IMG/VR virus record: IMGVR_UViG_2718218308_000003
Location: 1-42,271 of that record
Strand: one strand, 5' to 3'
DNA from: a virus
Lineage: Duplodnaviria; Heunggongvirae; Uroviricota; Caudoviricetes
DNA: 42,271 bases
Under the pieces are notes generated by a model. It ran no database searches. It was not told the DNA's origin and worked only from the letters and a program-made list of their open reading frames with translations. Shown here in pieces: positions 20,817 through 28,895 of the stretch; positions within the stretch are counted from its first letter, which is position 1, and every line of letters starts with the position of its first letter. Made by a program: the position numbers and the translations under genes.

Positions 20817-21419
20817 TTACGCGTTAAGAAGGGTCAGGACGCGTTCACGCGCCATACGTTGATTAATGGCTTTCTGTAGCGCGCCGCTGTTGCGCGCCTC
20901 CTGCCATGCTTTCATGGAGCGAACAGCCGAGTCAGCCTCCTGATAGGCAGGATATGTCACAGGACTGACATCCAGCAGACGGGAAAAGCGGGTTATCTCG
21001 CGAATAACAACCCCGTCCTCATCCTGATACCACTCCTCGCCGTCACGGGCGACACGGAAAGCAAAAGATGACTGGTTAATATCTCCACGTTGCATCGGGG
21101 CCAGCACCAGATCACGAATGGTCTGTGTCTCCGGAGCCTGGATGTCATAGCGCAATCCGCGCTCATCAACTGAAAGATTCAGCGTGCCTGCTGCACTACG
21201 CCCAAGAATAAAATTAGGATCGTGGTTAAACAGTGCGCGTACATCATCACCAAGCACATCGTCAAAAGCGCCGGGCCGGATGATTTCGCGGAATGAACCG
21301 AATATCAGCTCAGAACGACAGTCAAACACCGATCCATAACCGATAATGTGCGCCGGGTTATCGTCATGCCACTCAGCACGCACCTCACCGCTGTAACAAC
21401 GGATTTCACGGTCATTCAT
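20817..21419 (-). CDS. Prohead protease (HK97 family, S78)
   Basis: Conserved protease core (HIIGYGSVFD...). The most plausible start is the ATG at 21419, preceded by a GAGGGA Shine-Dalgarno just after the portal stop; the ORF-track start at 21476 overlaps the portal gene. Confidence 0.7.
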   Translation of the reverse strand: MNDREIRCYSGEVRAEWHDDNPAHIIGYGSVFDCRSELIFGSFREIIRPGAFDDVLGDDVRALFNHDPNFILGRSAAGTLNLSVDERGLRYDIQAPETQTIRDLVLAPMQRGDINQSSFAFRVARDGEEWYQDEDGVVIREITRFSRLLDVSPVTYPAYQEADSAVRSMKAWQEARNSGALQKAINQRMARERVLTLLNA

Positions 21420-22686
21420 TGGTTTTTCCCTCATCGTTTTTTGGGGGCTTAAAATCTCCTGCCGGGTTAGCAGCATTCACGCTTACCAGCATCTCGTCCA
21501 GCCCTTCAACCGGATTCATATCCTCGAATGCGCGGGCCTCATTACGGCTCATCCATCCATCGGTAATAGCGAAGTGATAGAATTGCGCGCGCTCCTGCGG
21601 AGTTCCGCGTAAAAGCCCCGTCAGATTGAACCTGACGTAATACCCGGCGGCTAACTCAGCGCGGGTAAACAAGCGACGGTTAAGCTCCTGCTCCCAGTTC
21701 GTCACCCACGGCATCATCGTGTAGCGGACAAACTGAATCGCCTGCGCAGAAATATTGGAGAAGGTGGCTTTTTCGAGGTCATTAATCATGTGCGCAGGAA
21801 TATTGAAAATACCGGCGATCATTGAACGGTTCAGCTTCATCATGTCAATGATCTGAGCGTCAACTGGCGACACAGTCAGTGCCTTGTAATCCAGATCGGC
21901 TGGCAGCAGCATGGTTTTGTTTTCCTGCCGGCGTAACGCCTGCGATGCCTTCTGCCACTGATCTTTAAGCCAGCCCCAGCTTTCCTTATTGAGTCCGCTT
22001 TTAACGGATACTATCCCCGCCGGACGGGCATTACCGCTGAAGAAGCTTTCTGTGTACTTCTGACCGCTCATCCCCATGCCTATTGTTTCGGCATGTTGCA
22101 TAATCGGACTCAGCCCCATCTTCTGATTATTACCCAGCGCACGGATGTGGATCATATCGTCCGGACTGATCGCAAACGCCCCATATTCGTTGTACAAACC
22201 GTAGGTATATCGGCCACCAGTATTCATCAGCGTCGTTTCCCACGGCATACAGCAATCCAGGGATATGACTTCACCGCGACGATTACGTTTCACCCAGGTA
22301 TACCCATTCCCCCAGCCAAGGATGTGACGTTGCTTCAGTTCGCGCCATTTGTAGCTGGTTTGCCAGGTATTGGGCTCATCATGAACCAGATAAAACGCCG
22401 GATGATCGCGTGCGGGTTCAACCTTCCCCTTGTGCCTGCGCATAACATGCAACGGCATCTGGGCAAGGCTGGAAGACAGGACATAGATACAGGAATACAC
22501 CGCAGCCAGTTTCATCGCAGTCTCAGGACTGACATAAACGTCTGCCCGGAACAGCCCATCAGTATCAACGGCATCCCCGGTTATCGGGGTGGAAGGATTC
22601 TCCAGTGATTTACTTCTGAACAGAGCATCAAGCAGCACGCGTCCCCCTTCTGGCCATAGCCAGTGCGCCCACCAGCAGTAAAGCAC
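21412..22686 (-). CDS. Portal protein (HK97 family)
   Basis: 424 aa; located between the terminase large subunit and the protease, in canonical order. Confidence 0.8.
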   Translation of the reverse strand: MLYCWWAHWLWPEGGRVLLDALFRSKSLENPSTPITGDAVDTDGLFRADVYVSPETAMKLAAVYSCIYVLSSSLAQMPLHVMRRHKGKVEPARDHPAFYLVHDEPNTWQTSYKWRELKQRHILGWGNGYTWVKRNRRGEVISLDCCMPWETTLMNTGGRYTYGLYNEYGAFAISPDDMIHIRALGNNQKMGLSPIMQHAETIGMGMSGQKYTESFFSGNARPAGIVSVKSGLNKESWGWLKDQWQKASQALRRQENKTMLLPADLDYKALTVSPVDAQIIDMMKLNRSMIAGIFNIPAHMINDLEKATFSNISAQAIQFVRYTMMPWVTNWEQELNRRLFTRAELAAGYYVRFNLTGLLRGTPQERAQFYHFAITDGWMSRNEARAFEDMNPVEGLDEMLVSVNAANPAGDFKPPKNDEGKTNE

Positions 22687-22785: not shown

Positions 22786-24519
22786 TCATAGAATTAAGAG
22801 ATCATCGTCCGGATCAAGAGATGAGAGGAAATCGTCAGGTTCTTTGAGCATTGCCCGACCGATCGTCATAATCAGTGCAACCGCACCATCGATTTTGTTT
22901 TCCGCCTGCTCCTTGACGGGCTTCACTAAATCATCGTTACCTGGCATGTTTTTGCCGACCACATTGCCGATACACCAGGTCATGATGGGATTGCCGTCAT
23001 GATGAAAGCGTCCCGATTCAATCGCTGCTTCCAGCTCTTTCATCGGATCGGACATATTGGCGAAGTTCTGGACAATAGTGACGGGATTCAGATCTTCATC
23101 AGCAAGGTCATGTGACAGCCCGGTCGCCCCGAAGGGGTCGATGGGTGACTCACTGACCGGGCTGATTTTGTTCGCCGCTTTGGCCTCTTCGAGGATGTAG
23201 CGATAATCCACCTCTGCACCATCGGTAACGGTCAGGACGCCCATTTCCACCCATTTCTGAAAGCGTTCGGCTGTCCGTCTATCTTCATTTTTCTCGACGC
23301 TGTACACCGTGTCATACGGTACCCAGAAGCGCGGGGCCACACTGTAGTAATGCGTTTTACCGTCAATCTCGCGGGTATAAAGTCGCGCCATGCTGTTCAT
23401 ATCCAGCTTACGCGCCAGGTCAAAGGCCAGAATGCACGGCTGCCCCTCGAACTGCTCAAGGGTCAGTGATTTATCCTCGCAGCTCTGCCAGCTCACCAGG
23501 TTGAAATACGCCGAACGTGCCGACACCCAGATATTGAGGTGTTTTGTTTTAAAGACGTTTGCCAGACGGGCGTTATTTTTCGCACGCTGCTGCTGACTTA
23601 ACAAAAATTCGCGATAAACCGACACGCCAATATTTGGATTGGCTTTTTCCAGCACCTGCGGGTCGGTCCAGTCGTCACCTTCATCAACGGTATAGATGAT
23701 CCCGAACAGTTCATCGTTAGGCACCGAGCCGTTGAGCATCTCGATGACTTCCCGCCGCTTGTCGTAGCACGGCCCCTCAATGTTGTACCCGGCGGTGGTG
23801 ATGGCCCACATCAGTGGCTGACGTCGCGCCCCCATCCCGGTAAGCATTGTGGTATAAAGCGCATCGGTGGCATGCTCGTGATATTCATCAACCACGGCAC
23901 AGTGGGGTGATGAACCATCACCGGGGTTGCCGATCAGCGGTTCAAACCGCGCGCCATCCTCCGGACGGTTCATGTTTGAGGCGTTAACCTCAATCCCGAA
24001 CGCTTCCGTCAGCATGGGTGTGCGTTTACACATCAGTCGCGCCGGGCGAAAGACTTCCCACGCCTGTTTCTCTGTCGTGGCACCGGAATACACTTCCGCG
24101 CCAAACTCGTTATCACAGGCAAAACAATACAGGGCAACACCGGCAGAGATTGCTGATTTGCCGTTCTTACGGGGGATTTCGGTATACACCTCCCGGAAGC
24201 GGCGCAACCGGGTGCCTTTATTGACCCAGCCAAACGCACAGCAGATCACAAATAGCTGCCACGGCTCCAGCGTGATGGGCATCCGTTTGAATGCCCACTC
24301 ACCCTTGGTGTGCGGCAACAGCTGAATAAATTTCGCGGCCCGTTCAGCCAGGTCCTTGTCGAAGCGGTAACGAAACGACTTACTTTTTTCCGCCATCAGG
24401 TCATCAAGATGGCGCTGGCAGGCCTGAATCACAAACTGGCAGGCAACAATCTTTCCGCGCACGACATCCCGGGCATACTGATTTGCAGCATTTACGTTGG
24501 GGTAAGATTTCCGGCTCAT
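22786..24519 (-). CDS. Terminase large subunit
   Basis: 577-aa protein with an N-terminal ATPase region and a C-terminal nuclease region (acidic residues, ...VDEYHEH...). Follows the small subunit with a 4-bp overlap. Confidence 0.9.
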
Positions 24520-25019
24520 GATTCGATAATTTTCAGAAACGGGTTAGTGGCTTTCTTCTGCCCCGCCAGGCCAATCAGACGCTGGCGGCTGCTGGGGTCG
24601 AGTCCGAGCATTGCCCCCGTACTGCTCATCTCGGACTCCTGTTCTTTTTTGGCGGTCAGCTCCGGATTTTTGACCATGCCGCCCATTGCACCGGTGATGG
24701 TGTTGCCCTGTCTGGCAATATTTTTCACAGCACGTCGCCAGAACTCATAGGCTACGCACCACCGCTCAAGCACTGCGAGGTCAGTCACGCACAGCAGGCC
24801 CTGACCGCAGAGTTCTTTGGTTGTCAGTTGCCACATGATCGTGGCGAGAGGGAGCTCTTCTTCAGCGAACCACTCCGGTGGCTCAACACCTTTGATGGGC
24901 GTAAAAACGGGTTCATCTTTGTTCAGGGCTCGCTTGCCGGGGTTTCCGGCCAGCGCCTTGCGCGCCGTTGGCTTGGGGCGACGCCCGGAACGCCCCGCCG
25001 TTCCAGCCATATGCGGCAC
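24516..25019 (-). CDS. Terminase small subunit (P27 family)
   Basis: 167 aa with a basic N-terminus; immediately upstream of and overlapping the large subunit gene. Confidence 0.7.
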
Positions 25020-25136
25020 TCCTGGTTAAATTTCATTTTTCGCGGGTATAAAAAAACGATGGGGCGGGCAGTCCGGAAGACGTCAGGTCACAGGGATTTG
25101 ACCCGCCCCTCCCCCACAGACAGTTGAGAATTATTA

Positions 25137-25487
25137 TCACTTTAACCGTTCACGGGCCGTCTTCGCCTTATGACACGGCCAGCACAGACTCTGCAGATTA
25201 CTGTCTGCATCAGTGCCGCCATGCGCTTTAGGGATGATGTGGTCAACGGTTTTCGCCTCACGCACCACACCGGCACGCAGACATAACTGACACAGGCCTT
25301 TGTCACGCTTCAGTACACGTTCACGGATAGCATCCCATTTCGAACCGTAGCCGCGCTGATGACGGGATTGTCCTGGCTTGTATTGCTTCCAGCCTTCGCT
25401 TTTGTGGCTTTCGCAGTAGCCTGACGGGTCTGTGGTGGTATGGCGGCAGCCACGAACACGGCAGGCTTTTGGGATTCGTGATGGCAT
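25137..25487 (-). CDS. HNH endonuclease (terminase-associated, HK97 gp74-like)
   Basis: Cys-rich zinc-finger plus an H-N-H core (DHIIPKAHGGTDADSNLQSLCWPCH). The start is taken as the internal ATG at 25487 (MPSRIPKACRVRGC...); the ORF-track start at 25586 is less likely. Confidence 0.7.
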   Translation of the reverse strand: MPSRIPKACRVRGCRHTTTDPSGYCESHKSEGWKQYKPGQSRHQRGYGSKWDAIRERVLKRDKGLCQLCLRAGVVREAKTVDHIIPKAHGGTDADSNLQSLCWPCHKAKTARERLK

Positions 25488-26012
25488 ATGTACTCCAATG
25501 AAGAAGCCACCGACATAGCCTCCTCCATTCATCGTGAAACTATTTTCATCTACCCAGTAATGAATTCTTTGTAGAGTTGTGATCAATACAACTCACTAAT
25601 GGAGAGGCTTGTCCAACACGTTGGACAAGTTTCCTGTTTGATTTACTGGACACTATAGAAGGACAGAATGCCTTCATCACTCGAATAACATCAATTAAGG
25701 AGGTTCAACATGTTTCATTCCACAAATCATCAGGCTGTAATTATGGCTGCATCAGCTTGTGCCACAGACCTTTTCCGCTTCACTTTAAGCCTGATTCATT
25801 TCTACCTGACCGGCTCGCCTCTATCTTTTTAATCCCCGCTTTATCCAAATTGCATTGCCAGAATGCCGACAACAGACTGACATTCAAATCCTGACTACCT
25901 CCAATAGTCTGACCGTACACCTATATAGTTTTAATTTTCATCAATCCATTTAACTATCGTTTAATTGTTGTCACATAGGATTCTGCCGTTTTTAACAATG
26001 CAGGATAATAAG

Positions 26013-26306
26013 ATGAAAAAAATGTTGTTTTCTGCCGCTCTGGCAATGCTTATTACAGGATGTGCTCAACAGACGTTTACTGTTGGAAACAAACCGACAG
26101 CAGTAACACCAAAGGAAACCATCACCCATCATTTCTTCGTTTCGGGAATTGGACAGGAGAAAACTGTTGATGCAGCCAAAATTTGTGGCGGCGCAGAAAA
26201 TGTGGTTAAAACAGAAACCCAGCAAACATTCGTAAATGGATTGCTCGGTTTTATTACTTTAGGCATTTATACTCCGCTGGAAGCACGTGTGTATTGCTCA
26301 CAATAA
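26013..26306 (+). CDS. bor: Bor-family outer-membrane lipoprotein (lambda Bor / Iss-like serum-resistance protein)
   Basis: 97-aa protein MKKMLFSAALAMLITGCAQQTFTV... with a lipobox (LITGC); it closely matches lambda Bor as I recall it. It sits antisense between the lysis genes and the packaging genes, as in lambda. Confidence 0.85.
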   Translation: MKKMLFSAALAMLITGCAQQTFTVGNKPTAVTPKETITHHFFVSGIGQEKTVDAAKICGGAENVVKTETQQTFVNGLLGFITLGIYTPLEARVYCSQ

Positions 26307-27776: not shown

Positions 27777-27895
27777 AAGCTGTGTGGCGAAGTAACCACT
27801 CTTAACACGATACAATTTTTTTTGCGTACGCGTTAGTTTTTTATTACTTTACTTTTTGATACTATCGGCGTGGTTACAAACAAGGAGAACAGCAA

Positions 27896-28158
27896 TGAGT
27901 AACTACTTGGAAGTTAAGAGAAAAATTGGTCAATATGCATGTGTTACTCGGTGGGGTTTTCCCTGTGCCGAGCGTGAAATCACTTTGATACAAAATGACA
28001 TTAACTCCGCGATTCAAAGTGGTAAAGTTATAAGTCGTAGCATGCTCCAAGGCATTATCAGCCGTCATGTTCCCAATACCCATTTCTTAATCACCGACAG
28101 TGTGGACAACTCTGATCTTAACACTGCATTAAGAATGCTGGCGCCAAAACAAAAATGA
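27896..28158 (+). CDS. Hypothetical small soluble protein (87 aa), first gene of an antisense cargo cassette
   Basis: The ATG at 27896 is preceded by AAGGAGAA. AT-rich. Its stop overlaps the start of the next ORF (28155), which suggests translational coupling. Confidence 0.45.
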
Positions 28159-28895
28159 ATAATGATGTGTTTCAGATCAGCCCCGACGAAGTAACGTCGG
28201 AGCTGATTTCTGCAAAGGAAAGATTTTTACGTGGTATTCAGCCATACTTGTGTAATGGTATATCAAACCTTGCTGACCTACATGAAATTCAGCAGCATGC
28301 TTCAAAATATTTTAATACCGCTGTTAAATTAGTTCAAAAAGTAGATTTATGTAAACTGGATGACAATAAGACATTTGCCATTTCCTTAGTTGGAGACTGT
28401 CGAGCGGTTCTGGAAACTTATTTAGAATACTACGACATGATGGTGTCAAACATTAAATGCCTAGAAATTGATCCAAACAATATTGTACTGTATAGCAAAG
28501 ATGGTCTATCAAACCTCCAAAGAATCATTAAAAAGTATTCATCAAAAGATATTTACACACCTATTATTGCTGAATTTGAGTCTCGAAATTTGCCAATCGA
28601 TGGATTTACTATAGGCACACCAATGAATTGGAAATTAATTGTCACTGCCATTATTGGATTTTTAAGTTTTTGTATTTTTTTATCAATTACGCTGCTAATA
28701 CCAGATTTGAATGAATTTCAAAAGAAAATGATTTTCTCTTTATATTTCATGAGTGCGGCCGTTGGAATCTCGCCATTCATTGCAAATAATATAAAGGTCA
28801 ATGGGAAGATGGCATTTCGTGGTTCGGAATTCAAAGTATCTGCTGTTGGTGGTTTAGCAGCATTGATTGTTTCTTTCATCATCCAAGTAATTTAG
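28155..28895 (+). CDS. Hypothetical protein (246 aa) with a soluble N-terminal domain and two or three C-terminal transmembrane helices; candidate effector or superinfection-exclusion protein
   Basis: Hydrophobic segments LIVTAIIGFLSFCIFLSITLLIP, MIFSLYFMSAAVGISPFIA and AVGGLAALIVSFIIQVI in the C-terminal third. AT-rich codon usage. Antisense to the phage late operon. Confidence 0.55.
   Translation: MNNDVFQISPDEVTSELISAKERFLRGIQPYLCNGISNLADLHEIQQHASKYFNTAVKLVQKVDLCKLDDNKTFAISLVGDCRAVLETYLEYYDMMVSNIKCLEIDPNNIVLYSKDGLSNLQRIIKKYSSKDIYTPIIAEFESRNLPIDGFTIGTPMNWKLIVTAIIGFLSFCIFLSITLLIPDLNEFQKKMIFSLYFMSAAVGISPFIANNIKVNGKMAFRGSEFKVSAVGGLAALIVSFIIQVI

What the first reader, a model, noticed from the sequence alone, without database searches (positions are those of the whole stretch)
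25020..25136. GC-rich inverted repeat between the HNH endonuclease and terminase small subunit genes: candidate cos or packaging site
GGGGCGGG (25061-25068) and CCCGCCCC (25102-25109) flank a 33-bp spacer in the 117-bp gap between the HNH and terminase small subunit genes. In HK97-type phages the HNH protein assists cos cleavage and cos lies in this position.
Basis: inference. Interest (0 to 1): 0.4.

Follow-up and report, generated by a model that had tools for sequence, protein, structure and literature searches.

The report
Known cos site of SfV-like prophage
The gap between the HNH and small-terminase genes does hold the phage's DNA-cutting (cos) site, already mapped in the near-identical Shigella phage SfI; the flagged inverted repeat is a by-product of two separate cos elements, so the finding is correct but ordinary.

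Summary
It is not unusual: 9% of shuffles of the gap contain one. It is also not conserved as a pair.

The window is an SfV-like prophage with HK97-type packaging genes on the minus strand. Minus-strand TGCCCGCCCC (25070->25061) is the 10 nt found missing from both run-off reads of SfI virion DNA. It lines up with the annotated cos-site of phiP27, and without gaps with the 10-nt 3' ends of HK97 and Burkholderia phiE125/phi644-2.

The left arm of the repeat is 8 of the 10 cohesive-end bases. The right arm belongs to a G-rich box plus TCAAATC, 35-55 bp upstream of the cut. That box sits at a fixed distance in about 30 prophages from Enterobacterales to Burkholderia, and in HK97.

Downstream, a T-run/ACCCGCGAAA/A-tract block tracks the small-terminase family and matches the HK97 TerS site in position and type.

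Verdict: already known, low interest. The only possible novelty is the apparently undescribed upstream box.

The parts
25137..25487 (-). HNH endonuclease gene (HK97 gp74-like packaging accessory nuclease)
   Evidence: Pfam HNH, E 2e-16. 36% identical to HK97 gp74 over 69 aa, E 1e-10. Annotated 'HNH endonuclease' in E. coli genomes.
25102..25115 (-).
   Evidence: Conserved as a G-rich tract (74% G, 1.0 bit per position) at a fixed distance in 28 diverse relatives, HK97 included. The single copy in the window.
25095..25101 (-). TCAAATC motif (-41..-35)
   Evidence: Identical, and in the same register, in HK97, phiP27, Klebsiella phages and many prophages.
25074..25094 (-). 21-nt spacer, variable in sequence and invariant in length (-34..-14)
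   Evidence: 0.5 bit per position, with no length change in 31 anchored sequences.
25071..25073 (-). GAC (-13..-11), left half of the dyad GAC-N10-(G/A)TC; inferred nick in the window plus strand between 25070 and 25071
   Evidence: A and C are invariant and G is present in 23 of 28. The nick position is inferred from the mapped ends of relatives.
25061..25070 (-).
   Evidence: Identical to the 10 nt missing from both run-off reads of SfI virion DNA and to the last 10 nt of the SfI record. Aligned with the phiP27 'cos-site' CGCCCGCCCC, the HK97 end CGCCGCCAAA and the phiE125/phi644-2 end CGCCCGCTTC.
25058..25060 (-). ATC (+1..+3), right half of the dyad; inferred nick in the minus strand between 25061 and 25060
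   Evidence: +2 is T in 27 of 28, +3 is C in 24 of 28, and +1 is G in 18 or A in 8. The SfI record starts GTCG at this point.
25027..25056 (-). Downstream block TTTTTTTATACCCGCGAAAAATGAAATTTA (+5..+34): presumed small-terminase binding site (cosB equivalent)
   Evidence: The most conserved part of the region: ACCCGCGAAA scores 1.59 bits per position. It is present upstream of every P27-family TerS gene examined. HK97-gp1-type phages have TAACCCGATTTTTTT there instead, and that is the mapped HK97 TerS site at +15..+29. Binding in this phage is inferred, not shown.
25019..25023 (-). AGGAG ribosome-binding site of the small-terminase gene
   Evidence: Read directly from the sequence; 8 nt upstream of the ATG at 25010.
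24516..25010 (-). Terminase small subunit, P27 family (164 aa)
22786..24519 (-). Terminase large subunit (ATPase plus nuclease)
   Evidence: Pfam TerL_ATPase and TerL_nuclease. 26% identical to HK97 gp2 over the full length, E 7e-31.
21412..22686 (-). Portal protein
   Evidence: Pfam Phage_portal, E 3e-98. 26% identical to HK97 gp3, E 2e-43.

Best explanation
The gap is the cos site of an SfV-like temperate myovirus whose packaging genes (HNH, TerS, TerL, portal) are of the HK97 type and lie on the window's minus strand.

During packaging of concatemeric DNA the steps are as follows:
- The P27-family small terminase binds the conserved T-run/ACCCGCG/A-tract block just upstream of its own gene (+5..+34; window 25056-25027).
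- The large terminase, stimulated by the HNH protein, nicks both strands 10 bp apart at GAC|TGCCCGCCCC|ATC. This leaves 10-nt 3' cohesive ends (window 25061-25070).
- Packaging runs from the TerS gene through the head and tail genes and round to the HNH gene, and ends at the next cos.

The flagged inverted repeat is not a unit. Its left arm is 8 of the 10 cohesive-end bases. Its right arm belongs to a separately conserved G-rich box plus TCAAATC, 35-55 bp upstream of the cut. Because of its position at the genome end that is packaged last, I take this box to be a third cos subsite used at cleavage or termination, in the way lambda uses cosQ.

Shown: the sequence identity with mapped ends in relatives, the gene homologies and the conservation pattern. 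Inferred: the nick positions and 3' polarity in this element, TerS binding to the downstream block, and any role for the G-box.
For: 1. Identity with mapped ends. SfI run-off sequencing gave a 10-nt gap, 5'-TGCCCGCCCC-3' (PMC3636060). This equals the reverse complement of window 25061-25070, and the SfI record ends and starts exactly there. SfV and SfIV are 100% identical to the window across 24900-25077.

2. phiP27 annotates a 'cos-site', CGCCCGCCCC, at the aligned position.

3. An ungapped alignment anchored on the cut puts three further experimentally known ends in the same 10 columns. These are the HK97 end CGCCGCCAAA (10-nt 3' overhang; PMC9410871 and PMC11331095) and the Burkholderia phiE125/phi644-2 3' extension CGCCCGCTTC (PMC2920897), which is found verbatim in locus L114. 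VarioGold also has 10-nt 3' ends, CGATCGGTTC.

4. TerL, portal and HNH are homologous to HK97 gp2, gp3 and gp74.

5. The same architecture is kept in 31 anchored sequences from Enterobacterales, Burkholderiales, Pseudomonas and Roseomonas, with no length change: G-box, TCAAATC, 21-nt spacer, GAC, N10, (G/A)TC, T-run, ACCCGCGAAA.

6. The downstream block follows the TerS family (P27 type, HK97-gp1 type), whereas the upstream half is shared. In HK97 the TerS site is +15..+29, CTAACCCGATTTTTT, with a critical C:G pair and an A-tract. The window has ACCCGCG followed by AAAAA at +14..+25.

7. The predicted TerS fold has HK97 TerS as its best meaningful PDB match.

8. All three sub-elements occur once in the window.
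Against: - No virion DNA of this particular prophage was examined, and it could be defective.
- The 3' polarity for the SfV group is my inference, drawn from the fact that the 10 nt were missing from both run-off reads rather than duplicated. The SfI paper does not state it.
- The CCCG motif sits 4 nt closer to the cut than in HK97.
- Nothing here tests what the G-box binds.
Confidence: 0.9

Rival explanations
1. The 8-bp inverted repeat is itself a functional element: a palindromic protein-binding site, or a DNA hairpin or cruciform that terminase or the HNH protein recognises.
For: The repeat is perfect (8 of 8) in the window, SfV, SfI, SfIV, phiP27 and most close relatives. Both arms lie in conserved cos elements.
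Against: - Pairing across 34 sequences is 74.6%, against 73.6% in column shuffles, and 99 of 500 shuffles do as well. The central pairs are broken in 17-20 of the 34 sequences.
- Prophages with a TerS at least 99% identical and the same cohesive end carry GGGGGAGG or GGGCAGG in the upstream arm, with no compensating change.
- The longest complementary match is 3-5 nt in HK97, the Klebsiella phages and Enterobacter soli.
- 9% of shuffles of the gap contain such a repeat.
- The repeat's centre of symmetry is about 20 bp away from the cuts.
Confidence: 0.05
2. The repeat is an RNA stem-loop in the late transcript: an intrinsic terminator or attenuator between the HNH and TerS genes. On the minus strand the second arm is followed by AUCG and then seven U.
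For: The minimum-free-energy fold of the minus-strand gap pairs the two arms, and a U7 run starts 4 nt after the stem.
Against: - The terminator scan finds nothing in the gap.
- The loop is 33 nt.
- The folding energy is ordinary: z = -1.15, and 27 of 200 shuffles fold as well.
- There is no covariation.
- There is no Rfam match above noise.
- The T-run is conserved in relatives that lack the stem, as part of the DNA block next to the cut.
Confidence: 0.03
3. The site is a relic. The prophage packages by headful, or not at all, so the sequence has no current function.
For: No direct evidence. This prophage's inducibility was not tested.
Against: - The cos block, HNH, TerS, TerL and portal genes are all intact.
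- The cos block is 100% identical to that of the viable phages SfV and SfIV.
- SfI, with the same module, has fixed ends.
- The TerL is of the HK97 (3' cos) type.
Confidence: 0.02

Closest known systems
cos site of Shigella serotype-converting phages SfI, SfV, SfIV and SfII (and E. coli Stx2e phage phiP27)
   Same: The same phage type: 97.9% DNA identity to SfV over the structural genes. The gene order HNH-cos-TerS is the same, the 10-nt cohesive-end sequence TGCCCGCCCC is identical, and the flanks are identical or nearly so. phiP27 has CGCCCGCCCC annotated as cos-site.
   Different: Nothing of substance. The window differs from SfI at +1 (A instead of G) and at a few spacer positions. The SfV and SfIV GenBank records begin 17 nt upstream of the physical end mapped in SfI.
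HK97 cos (10-nt 3' overhang; TerS site at +15..+29; cleavage stimulated by HNH gp74)
   Same: HNH, TerL and portal are homologous. The upstream architecture is in the same register: G-run, TCAAATC, 21 nt, GAC, N10. Downstream there is a CCCG plus A/T-tract motif. The predicted TerS fold is closest to HK97 TerS.
   Different: TerS has no detectable sequence similarity and belongs to the Pfam Terminase_4/P27 family, whereas HK97 gp1 hits no Pfam family. The cohesive-end sequence differs in 6 of 10 positions. The CCCG motif is at +15..+18 rather than +19..+22. HK97 has no inverted repeat.
cos of Burkholderia phages phiE125, phi1026b and phi644-2
   Same: A ten-base 3' extension (CGCCCGCTTC) occupies the same alignment columns, flanked by GAC and GTC, with the same G-box and ACCCGCGAAA block in a B. 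anthina prophage that carries a P27-family TerS.
   Different: Different host and virion type (siphovirus). The TerS is only 53% identical in the alignment. 4 of the 10 overhang positions differ.
Lambda cos (cosQ - cosN - cosB)
   Same: The three-part logic is the same: an upstream element at the genome end that is packaged last, a nicking site with partial two-fold symmetry, and a downstream TerS-binding region next to the TerS gene (background).
   Different: Lambda makes 12-nt 5' overhangs, uses a winged-helix Nu1 and IHF, and has no HNH partner. There is no sequence relationship. The cosQ-like role of the G-box is only an analogy from position.

Membership tests
HK97-type (HNH-assisted, 3'-cohesive-end) cos site | The site lies between an HNH endonuclease gene and the small-terminase gene in the circular or prophage map | tested here: met
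   HNH at 25137-25487 (-) and TerS at 24516-25010 (-), with TerL and portal downstream.
HK97-type (HNH-assisted, 3'-cohesive-end) cos site | TerL, portal and HNH are homologous to HK97 gp2, gp3 and gp74 | tested here: met
   BLASTP E-values of 7e-31, 2e-43 and 1e-10.
HK97-type (HNH-assisted, 3'-cohesive-end) cos site | The sequence at the site matches experimentally mapped cohesive ends of relatives | tested here: met
   Identical to the SfI 10-mer. Occupies the same columns as the ends of HK97, phiP27 and phiE125 in an ungapped alignment.
HK97-type (HNH-assisted, 3'-cohesive-end) cos site | Virion DNA of this element carries 10-nt 3' single-stranded ends at this site | not testable with these tools
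   Needs virion DNA. The polarity is inferred from the SfI run-off gap and from the stated 3' ends of HK97, phi644-2 and VarioGold.
HK97-type (HNH-assisted, 3'-cohesive-end) cos site | Small terminase related to HK97 gp1 | tested here: inconclusive
HK97-type (HNH-assisted, 3'-cohesive-end) cos site | TerS recognition element downstream of the cut: a C:G pair next to an A-tract, at about +15..+29 | tested here: inconclusive
   ACCCGCG followed by AAAAA lies at +14..+25. It is the most conserved block and tracks the TerS family. Binding was not tested, and the register is shifted 4 nt relative to HK97.
Functional inverted repeat or structured RNA | Pairing is maintained across relatives, with compensatory changes | tested here: not met
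   74.6% of cells are paired against 73.6% in shuffles (99 of 500 shuffles reach this). The covariation score is reached by 62 of 500 shuffles. Natural variants break the pairing.
Intrinsic (Rho-independent) terminator | A short G+C-rich hairpin with a 3-8 nt loop, immediately followed by a U-run | tested here: not met
   No site was called in the gap. The loop is 33 nt and 4 nt separate the stem from the U-run. Fold z-score is -1.15.
Lambda-type cos | 12-nt 5' cohesive ends, a Nu1-type TerS with R sites, and an IHF site | tested here: not met
   The TerS is of the P27 family, not Nu1, and relatives have 10-nt 3' ends. An IHF site was not tested.

The most novel reading that the evidence does not exclude
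The G-rich box plus TCAAATC at -55..-35 (window 25095-25115) may be a so far undescribed third subsite of HK97-type cos sites.

It is shared by phages whose small terminases have no detectable sequence similarity (HK97 gp1 type and P27 type). It is conserved from Enterobacterales to Burkholderiales at a fixed 21-nt distance from GAC. It sits on the genome end that enters the capsid last.

It could be the docking or braking signal read by TerL, HNH or the portal at termination, making it a functional counterpart of lambda cosQ. The HK97 literature I could read defines only the cut site and the TerS site at +15..+29.
Probability: 0.4. Interest if true: 0.45.

Novelty: already known. Interest (0 to 1): 0.15.

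Why it matters
For this window it matters little. The cos site of SfV-like phages was mapped in SfI in 2013 and annotated in phiP27 in 2002. The same HNH-cos-TerS segment occurs in 1183 of 5426 complete E. coli genomes.

The practical value is exact coordinates for the expected virion ends (25060/25061 and 25070/25071). These help prophage annotation and the interpretation of terminal reads.

The comparative by-product may be useful to people working on the HK97 packaging model. It is a 90-bp cos architecture conserved across Proteobacteria. Its upstream half is shared between TerS families, and its downstream half tracks the TerS family. This points to a testable upstream element that current HK97 work has not addressed.

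Tried and rejected
- RNA hairpin or terminator reading. The scan found none in the gap, the folding energy is ordinary, and the only Rfam hit is a noise-level snoRNA match.
- Covariation of the two arms. There is none.
- A whole-collection scan for the upstream half of cos. It returned nothing because I wrote the spacer as 24 N before GAC when it should be 21. The result is uninformative and I did not repeat the scan.
- Sequence links between the P27-family TerS and HK97 gp1: BLASTP, hhalign of a 21-sequence profile, and PDB searches with one sequence and with a profile. All were negative.
- Single-sequence AlphaFold of TerS. pLDDT was 39, so the model is unusable.
- The first related-loci scan returned only TerS at least 99% identical. 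It was useful for natural variants but not for diversity.
- The original papers on SfV (PMC134923) and on HNH packaging proteins (PMC4000778) are not held. What I say about them comes from papers that cite them.
- I considered an IHF site and a G-quadruplex in the G-box. I ran no test for either and make no claim.

Full report
**Observation.** The window reads ...cga tggggcgggc agtccggaag acgtcaggtc acagggattt gacccgcccc tccccc... from 25057. The repeat finder reports arms at 25061-25068 and 25102-25109, 8 nt long, 100% complementary, with 33 nt between them. The flanking genes are on the minus strand. The HNH endonuclease is at 25137-25487 (Pfam HNH, E 2e-16). The small terminase is at 24516-25010/25019 (Pfam Terminase_4, the P27 family). 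TerL (22786-24519) and portal (21412-22686) follow. The 117-bp gap assumes the mechanical GTG start. The annotated homologues in SfV, SfIV and SfI start at the ATG that corresponds to 25010, which is preceded by AGGAG, so the real gap is 126 bp.

By itself the repeat is weak evidence. 9.0% of dinucleotide shuffles of the gap contain a perfect 8-nt inverted repeat, and so do 7.2% of 117-nt tiles of the window.

**What the window is.** Positions 3751-25000 are 97.9% identical to Shigella phage SfV, with SfII, SfI and several E. coli phages close behind. The 351 bp around the gap occur in 1183 of 5426 complete E. coli genomes, annotated 'HNH endonuclease | phage terminase small subunit P27 family'. 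This is a very common SfV-like myovirus prophage.

**Where the ends are.** The megablast hits show that several phage records break inside the gap. The SfI paper reports direct sequencing of the virion DNA termini. [quoted passage not shown] The SfI record ends ...GGACTGCCCGCCCC and begins GTCGTTTTTTTATACCCGCG.

The reverse complement of window 25061-25070 is TGCCCGCCCC. It is preceded by GGAC (25074-25071) and followed by ATCGTTTTTTTATACCCGCG. phiP27 carries a misc_feature 'cos-site', CGCCCGCCCC, at the aligned position.

Template-directed run-off reads stop at the 5' end of the template strand. A stretch missing from both reads therefore implies a 3' extension, whereas a 5' extension would appear in both reads. 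This polarity is my inference. It agrees with three statements in the literature: the 10-nt 3' overhangs of HK97 (PMC9410871 Fig. 1 legend; PMC11331095), the ten-base 3' extensions of phi644-2/phiE125 (PMC2920897), and the 10-nt 3' ends of VarioGold (PMC9658991).

**Anatomy from comparison.** I read everything in phage orientation (the window's minus strand) and numbered from the top-strand cut, so that +1 is window 25060.

Joining the two ends of the HK97 record gives ...GGGGGGGGATCAAATC-21 nt-GAC-CGCCGCCAAA|GTTTGAATTTAACGCTAACCCGATTTTTTT. The window gives GGGGCGGGTCAAATC-21 nt-GAC-TGCCCGCCCC|ATCGTTTTTTTATACCCGCGAAAAATGAAA. The two align without gaps, and TCAAATC falls in the same register.

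A scan of one genome per species with a TerS alignment gave 35 loci, with TerS identity from 99% down to about 30%. Hosts include Edwardsiella, Serratia, Morganella, Yersinia, Aeromonas, Pseudomonas, Burkholderia, Caballeronia, Pandoraea and Roseomonas. Thirty-one sequences could be anchored with no length change. Over 28 diverse sequences the mean information per position is as follows:

| Element | Positions | Bits per position | Note |
|---|---|---|---|
| G-box | -55..-42 | 1.02 | 74% G |
| TCAAATC | -41..-35 | 0.89 | |
| Spacer | -34..-14 | 0.50 | |
| GAC | -13..-11 | 1.77 | |
| Overhang | -10..-1 | 1.09 | 56% C |
| +1..+3 | +1..+3 | 1.33 | G/A, T, C |
| T-run | +4..+13 | 1.35 | |
| ACCCGCGAAA | +14..+23 | 1.59 | |

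The Burkholderia anthina locus L114 has CGCCCGCTTC in the overhang columns. That is exactly the published phiE125/phi644-2 3' extension. The overhang column assignment is therefore validated experimentally in three clades. The real dyad is GAC-N10-(G/A)TC, with each strand cut 5' of (G/A)TC. The pair counts are A-T in 33 of 34 sequences, G-C in 26 of 34 and C-G in 18 of 34. Each of the three sub-elements occurs once in the window.

**The inverted repeat is not a unit.** Four results show this:
- Across the 31 anchored sequences, the longest complement between the G-box region and the cut region is 8 only in the window, phiP27 and two near-identical loci. It is 3-7 elsewhere, 3 in HK97 and 5 in the Klebsiella phages and Enterobacter soli.
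- Among 80 viral contigs whose TerS is at least 99% identical, the cohesive end is constant. The upstream arm, however, occurs as GGGGGAGG or GGGCAGG with no compensating change.
- On a 34-sequence alignment the proposed helix is paired in 74.6% of cells, against 73.6% in column shuffles (99 of 500 reach it). The two central pairs are broken in 17 and 20 of the 34 sequences.
- Independent draws from the family's column frequencies give a perfect repeat of 8 or more in 3% of cases.

The repeat follows from a G-rich element and a C-rich element that happen to lie on the same strand.

**RNA readings.** On the minus strand the second arm is followed by AUCG and U7. The terminator scan calls nothing in the gap. 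The fold is ordinary (z = -1.15). Rfam gives only a noise-level hit. The T-run is conserved in relatives that lack the stem.

**Which protein reads what.** TerL, portal and HNH are homologous to HK97 gp2, gp3 and gp74 (26%, E 7e-31; 26%, E 2e-43; 36%, E 1e-10). gp74 stimulates terminase cleavage at cos and is required in vivo (review PMC13595911 citing Kala et al. 2014; PMC9410871).

In HK97 the minimal TerS site is +15..+29, CTAACCCGATTTTTT. The C:G pair at +21 is read by Arg128, Arg7 lies in the minor groove, and an A-tract is essential but its orientation does not matter (PMC11331095). The window has ACCCGCG followed by AAAAA at +14..+25. This downstream block is present upstream of every P27-type TerS gene. 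It is replaced by the HK97 version upstream of every gp1-type TerS gene. The upstream half is common to both.

The two most conserved segments of P27-family TerS are a basic N-terminal arm (GRxPKPTxx[14 protein letters not shown]) and a C-terminal [10 protein letters not shown]. These are the same kinds of segments that form the HK97 arginine clamp. TerS binding to +5..+34 is therefore the most likely arrangement, but it remains an inference.

**The upstream box.** The G-box plus TCAAATC keeps its distance from the cut while its distance from the flanking genes varies. It lies 22 nt after the HNH stop here but about 270 nt after it in HK97. The TerS start is about 60 nt further away in the Providencia and Morganella loci. 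The box therefore belongs to cos and not to either gene.

It lies on the end that is packaged last, as lambda's cosQ does. The HK97 papers I could read define only the cut and the TerS site, and use -312..+472 or -80..+150 fragments. A role in termination or cleavage, read by TerL, HNH or the portal, is my best guess and is untested.

**Verdict.**
- The interpretation (cos in this gap, HK97-type) is supported and already known for this phage group.
- The inverted repeat is incidental.
- Interest is low.
- The only part that may be new is the conserved upstream box shared between TerS families.

Noticed in passing
window 25095-25115, with loci L094-L126 and HK97 (L009/L008): A roughly 90-bp cos architecture is conserved without length change from Enterobacterales to Burkholderiales, Pseudomonas and Roseomonas. 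It consists of a G-box, TCAAATC, a 21-nt spacer, GAC-N10-(G/A)TC, a T-run and ACCCGCGAAA. The upstream half is also present in HK97, whose small terminase has no detectable sequence similarity to the P27 type.
   Followed up: partly
window 27856-28895 (+): A two-ORF cassette (100 aa and 246 aa, the latter with a hydrophobic C-terminal half) with low G+C (32-40%, against about 52% in the flanks). It lies antisense between the holin gene and the Q antiterminator gene. There is no Pfam hit and only a noise-level PADLOC hit (DndH, E 0.003). It looks like a moron of unknown function.
   Followed up: partly
window 29281-30276 (-): A 331-aa DUF968 protein (E 5e-80) with a weak HNHc_6 match lies next to the Q gene. 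This makes it a second HNH-like protein in the late region, separate from the packaging HNH.
   Followed up: no
SfV U82619.2 and SfIV KC814930.1, record position 1 (= window 25077): These GenBank records start at TCCGGACTGCCCGCCCC. That is 17 nt upstream of the physical end mapped in SfI, so the cohesive-end sequence sits inside the left end of the record. Record ends in this phage group should not be read as virion ends.
   Followed up: yes
L095 (JAEWTL010000102.1, 'MAG: Bacillota bacterium') and protein P0112 ('Leptospira interrogans'): A 5.6-kb contig binned as Bacillota carries a TerS 98% identical to the window's and an identical cos block. A partial P27 TerS, 82% identical, is labelled Leptospira. 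Both look like enterobacterial prophage contamination or mis-binning.
   Followed up: no
PMC9410871 (HK97 packaging paper), Discussion versus Fig. 1 legend: The Discussion says lambda makes 10-nt 5' overhangs and HK97 makes 12-nt 3' overhangs. The Fig. 1 legend of the same paper, and PMC11331095, give 10-nt 3' overhangs for HK97. The numbers in the Discussion appear to be swapped.
   Followed up: yes
window 25965-26306 (+): A Bor lipoprotein gene (Pfam Lambda_Bor, E 1e-30) lies on the opposite strand between the HNH gene and the Rz/Rz1 lysis genes. The region around it is also low in G+C, about 40%.
   Followed up: no
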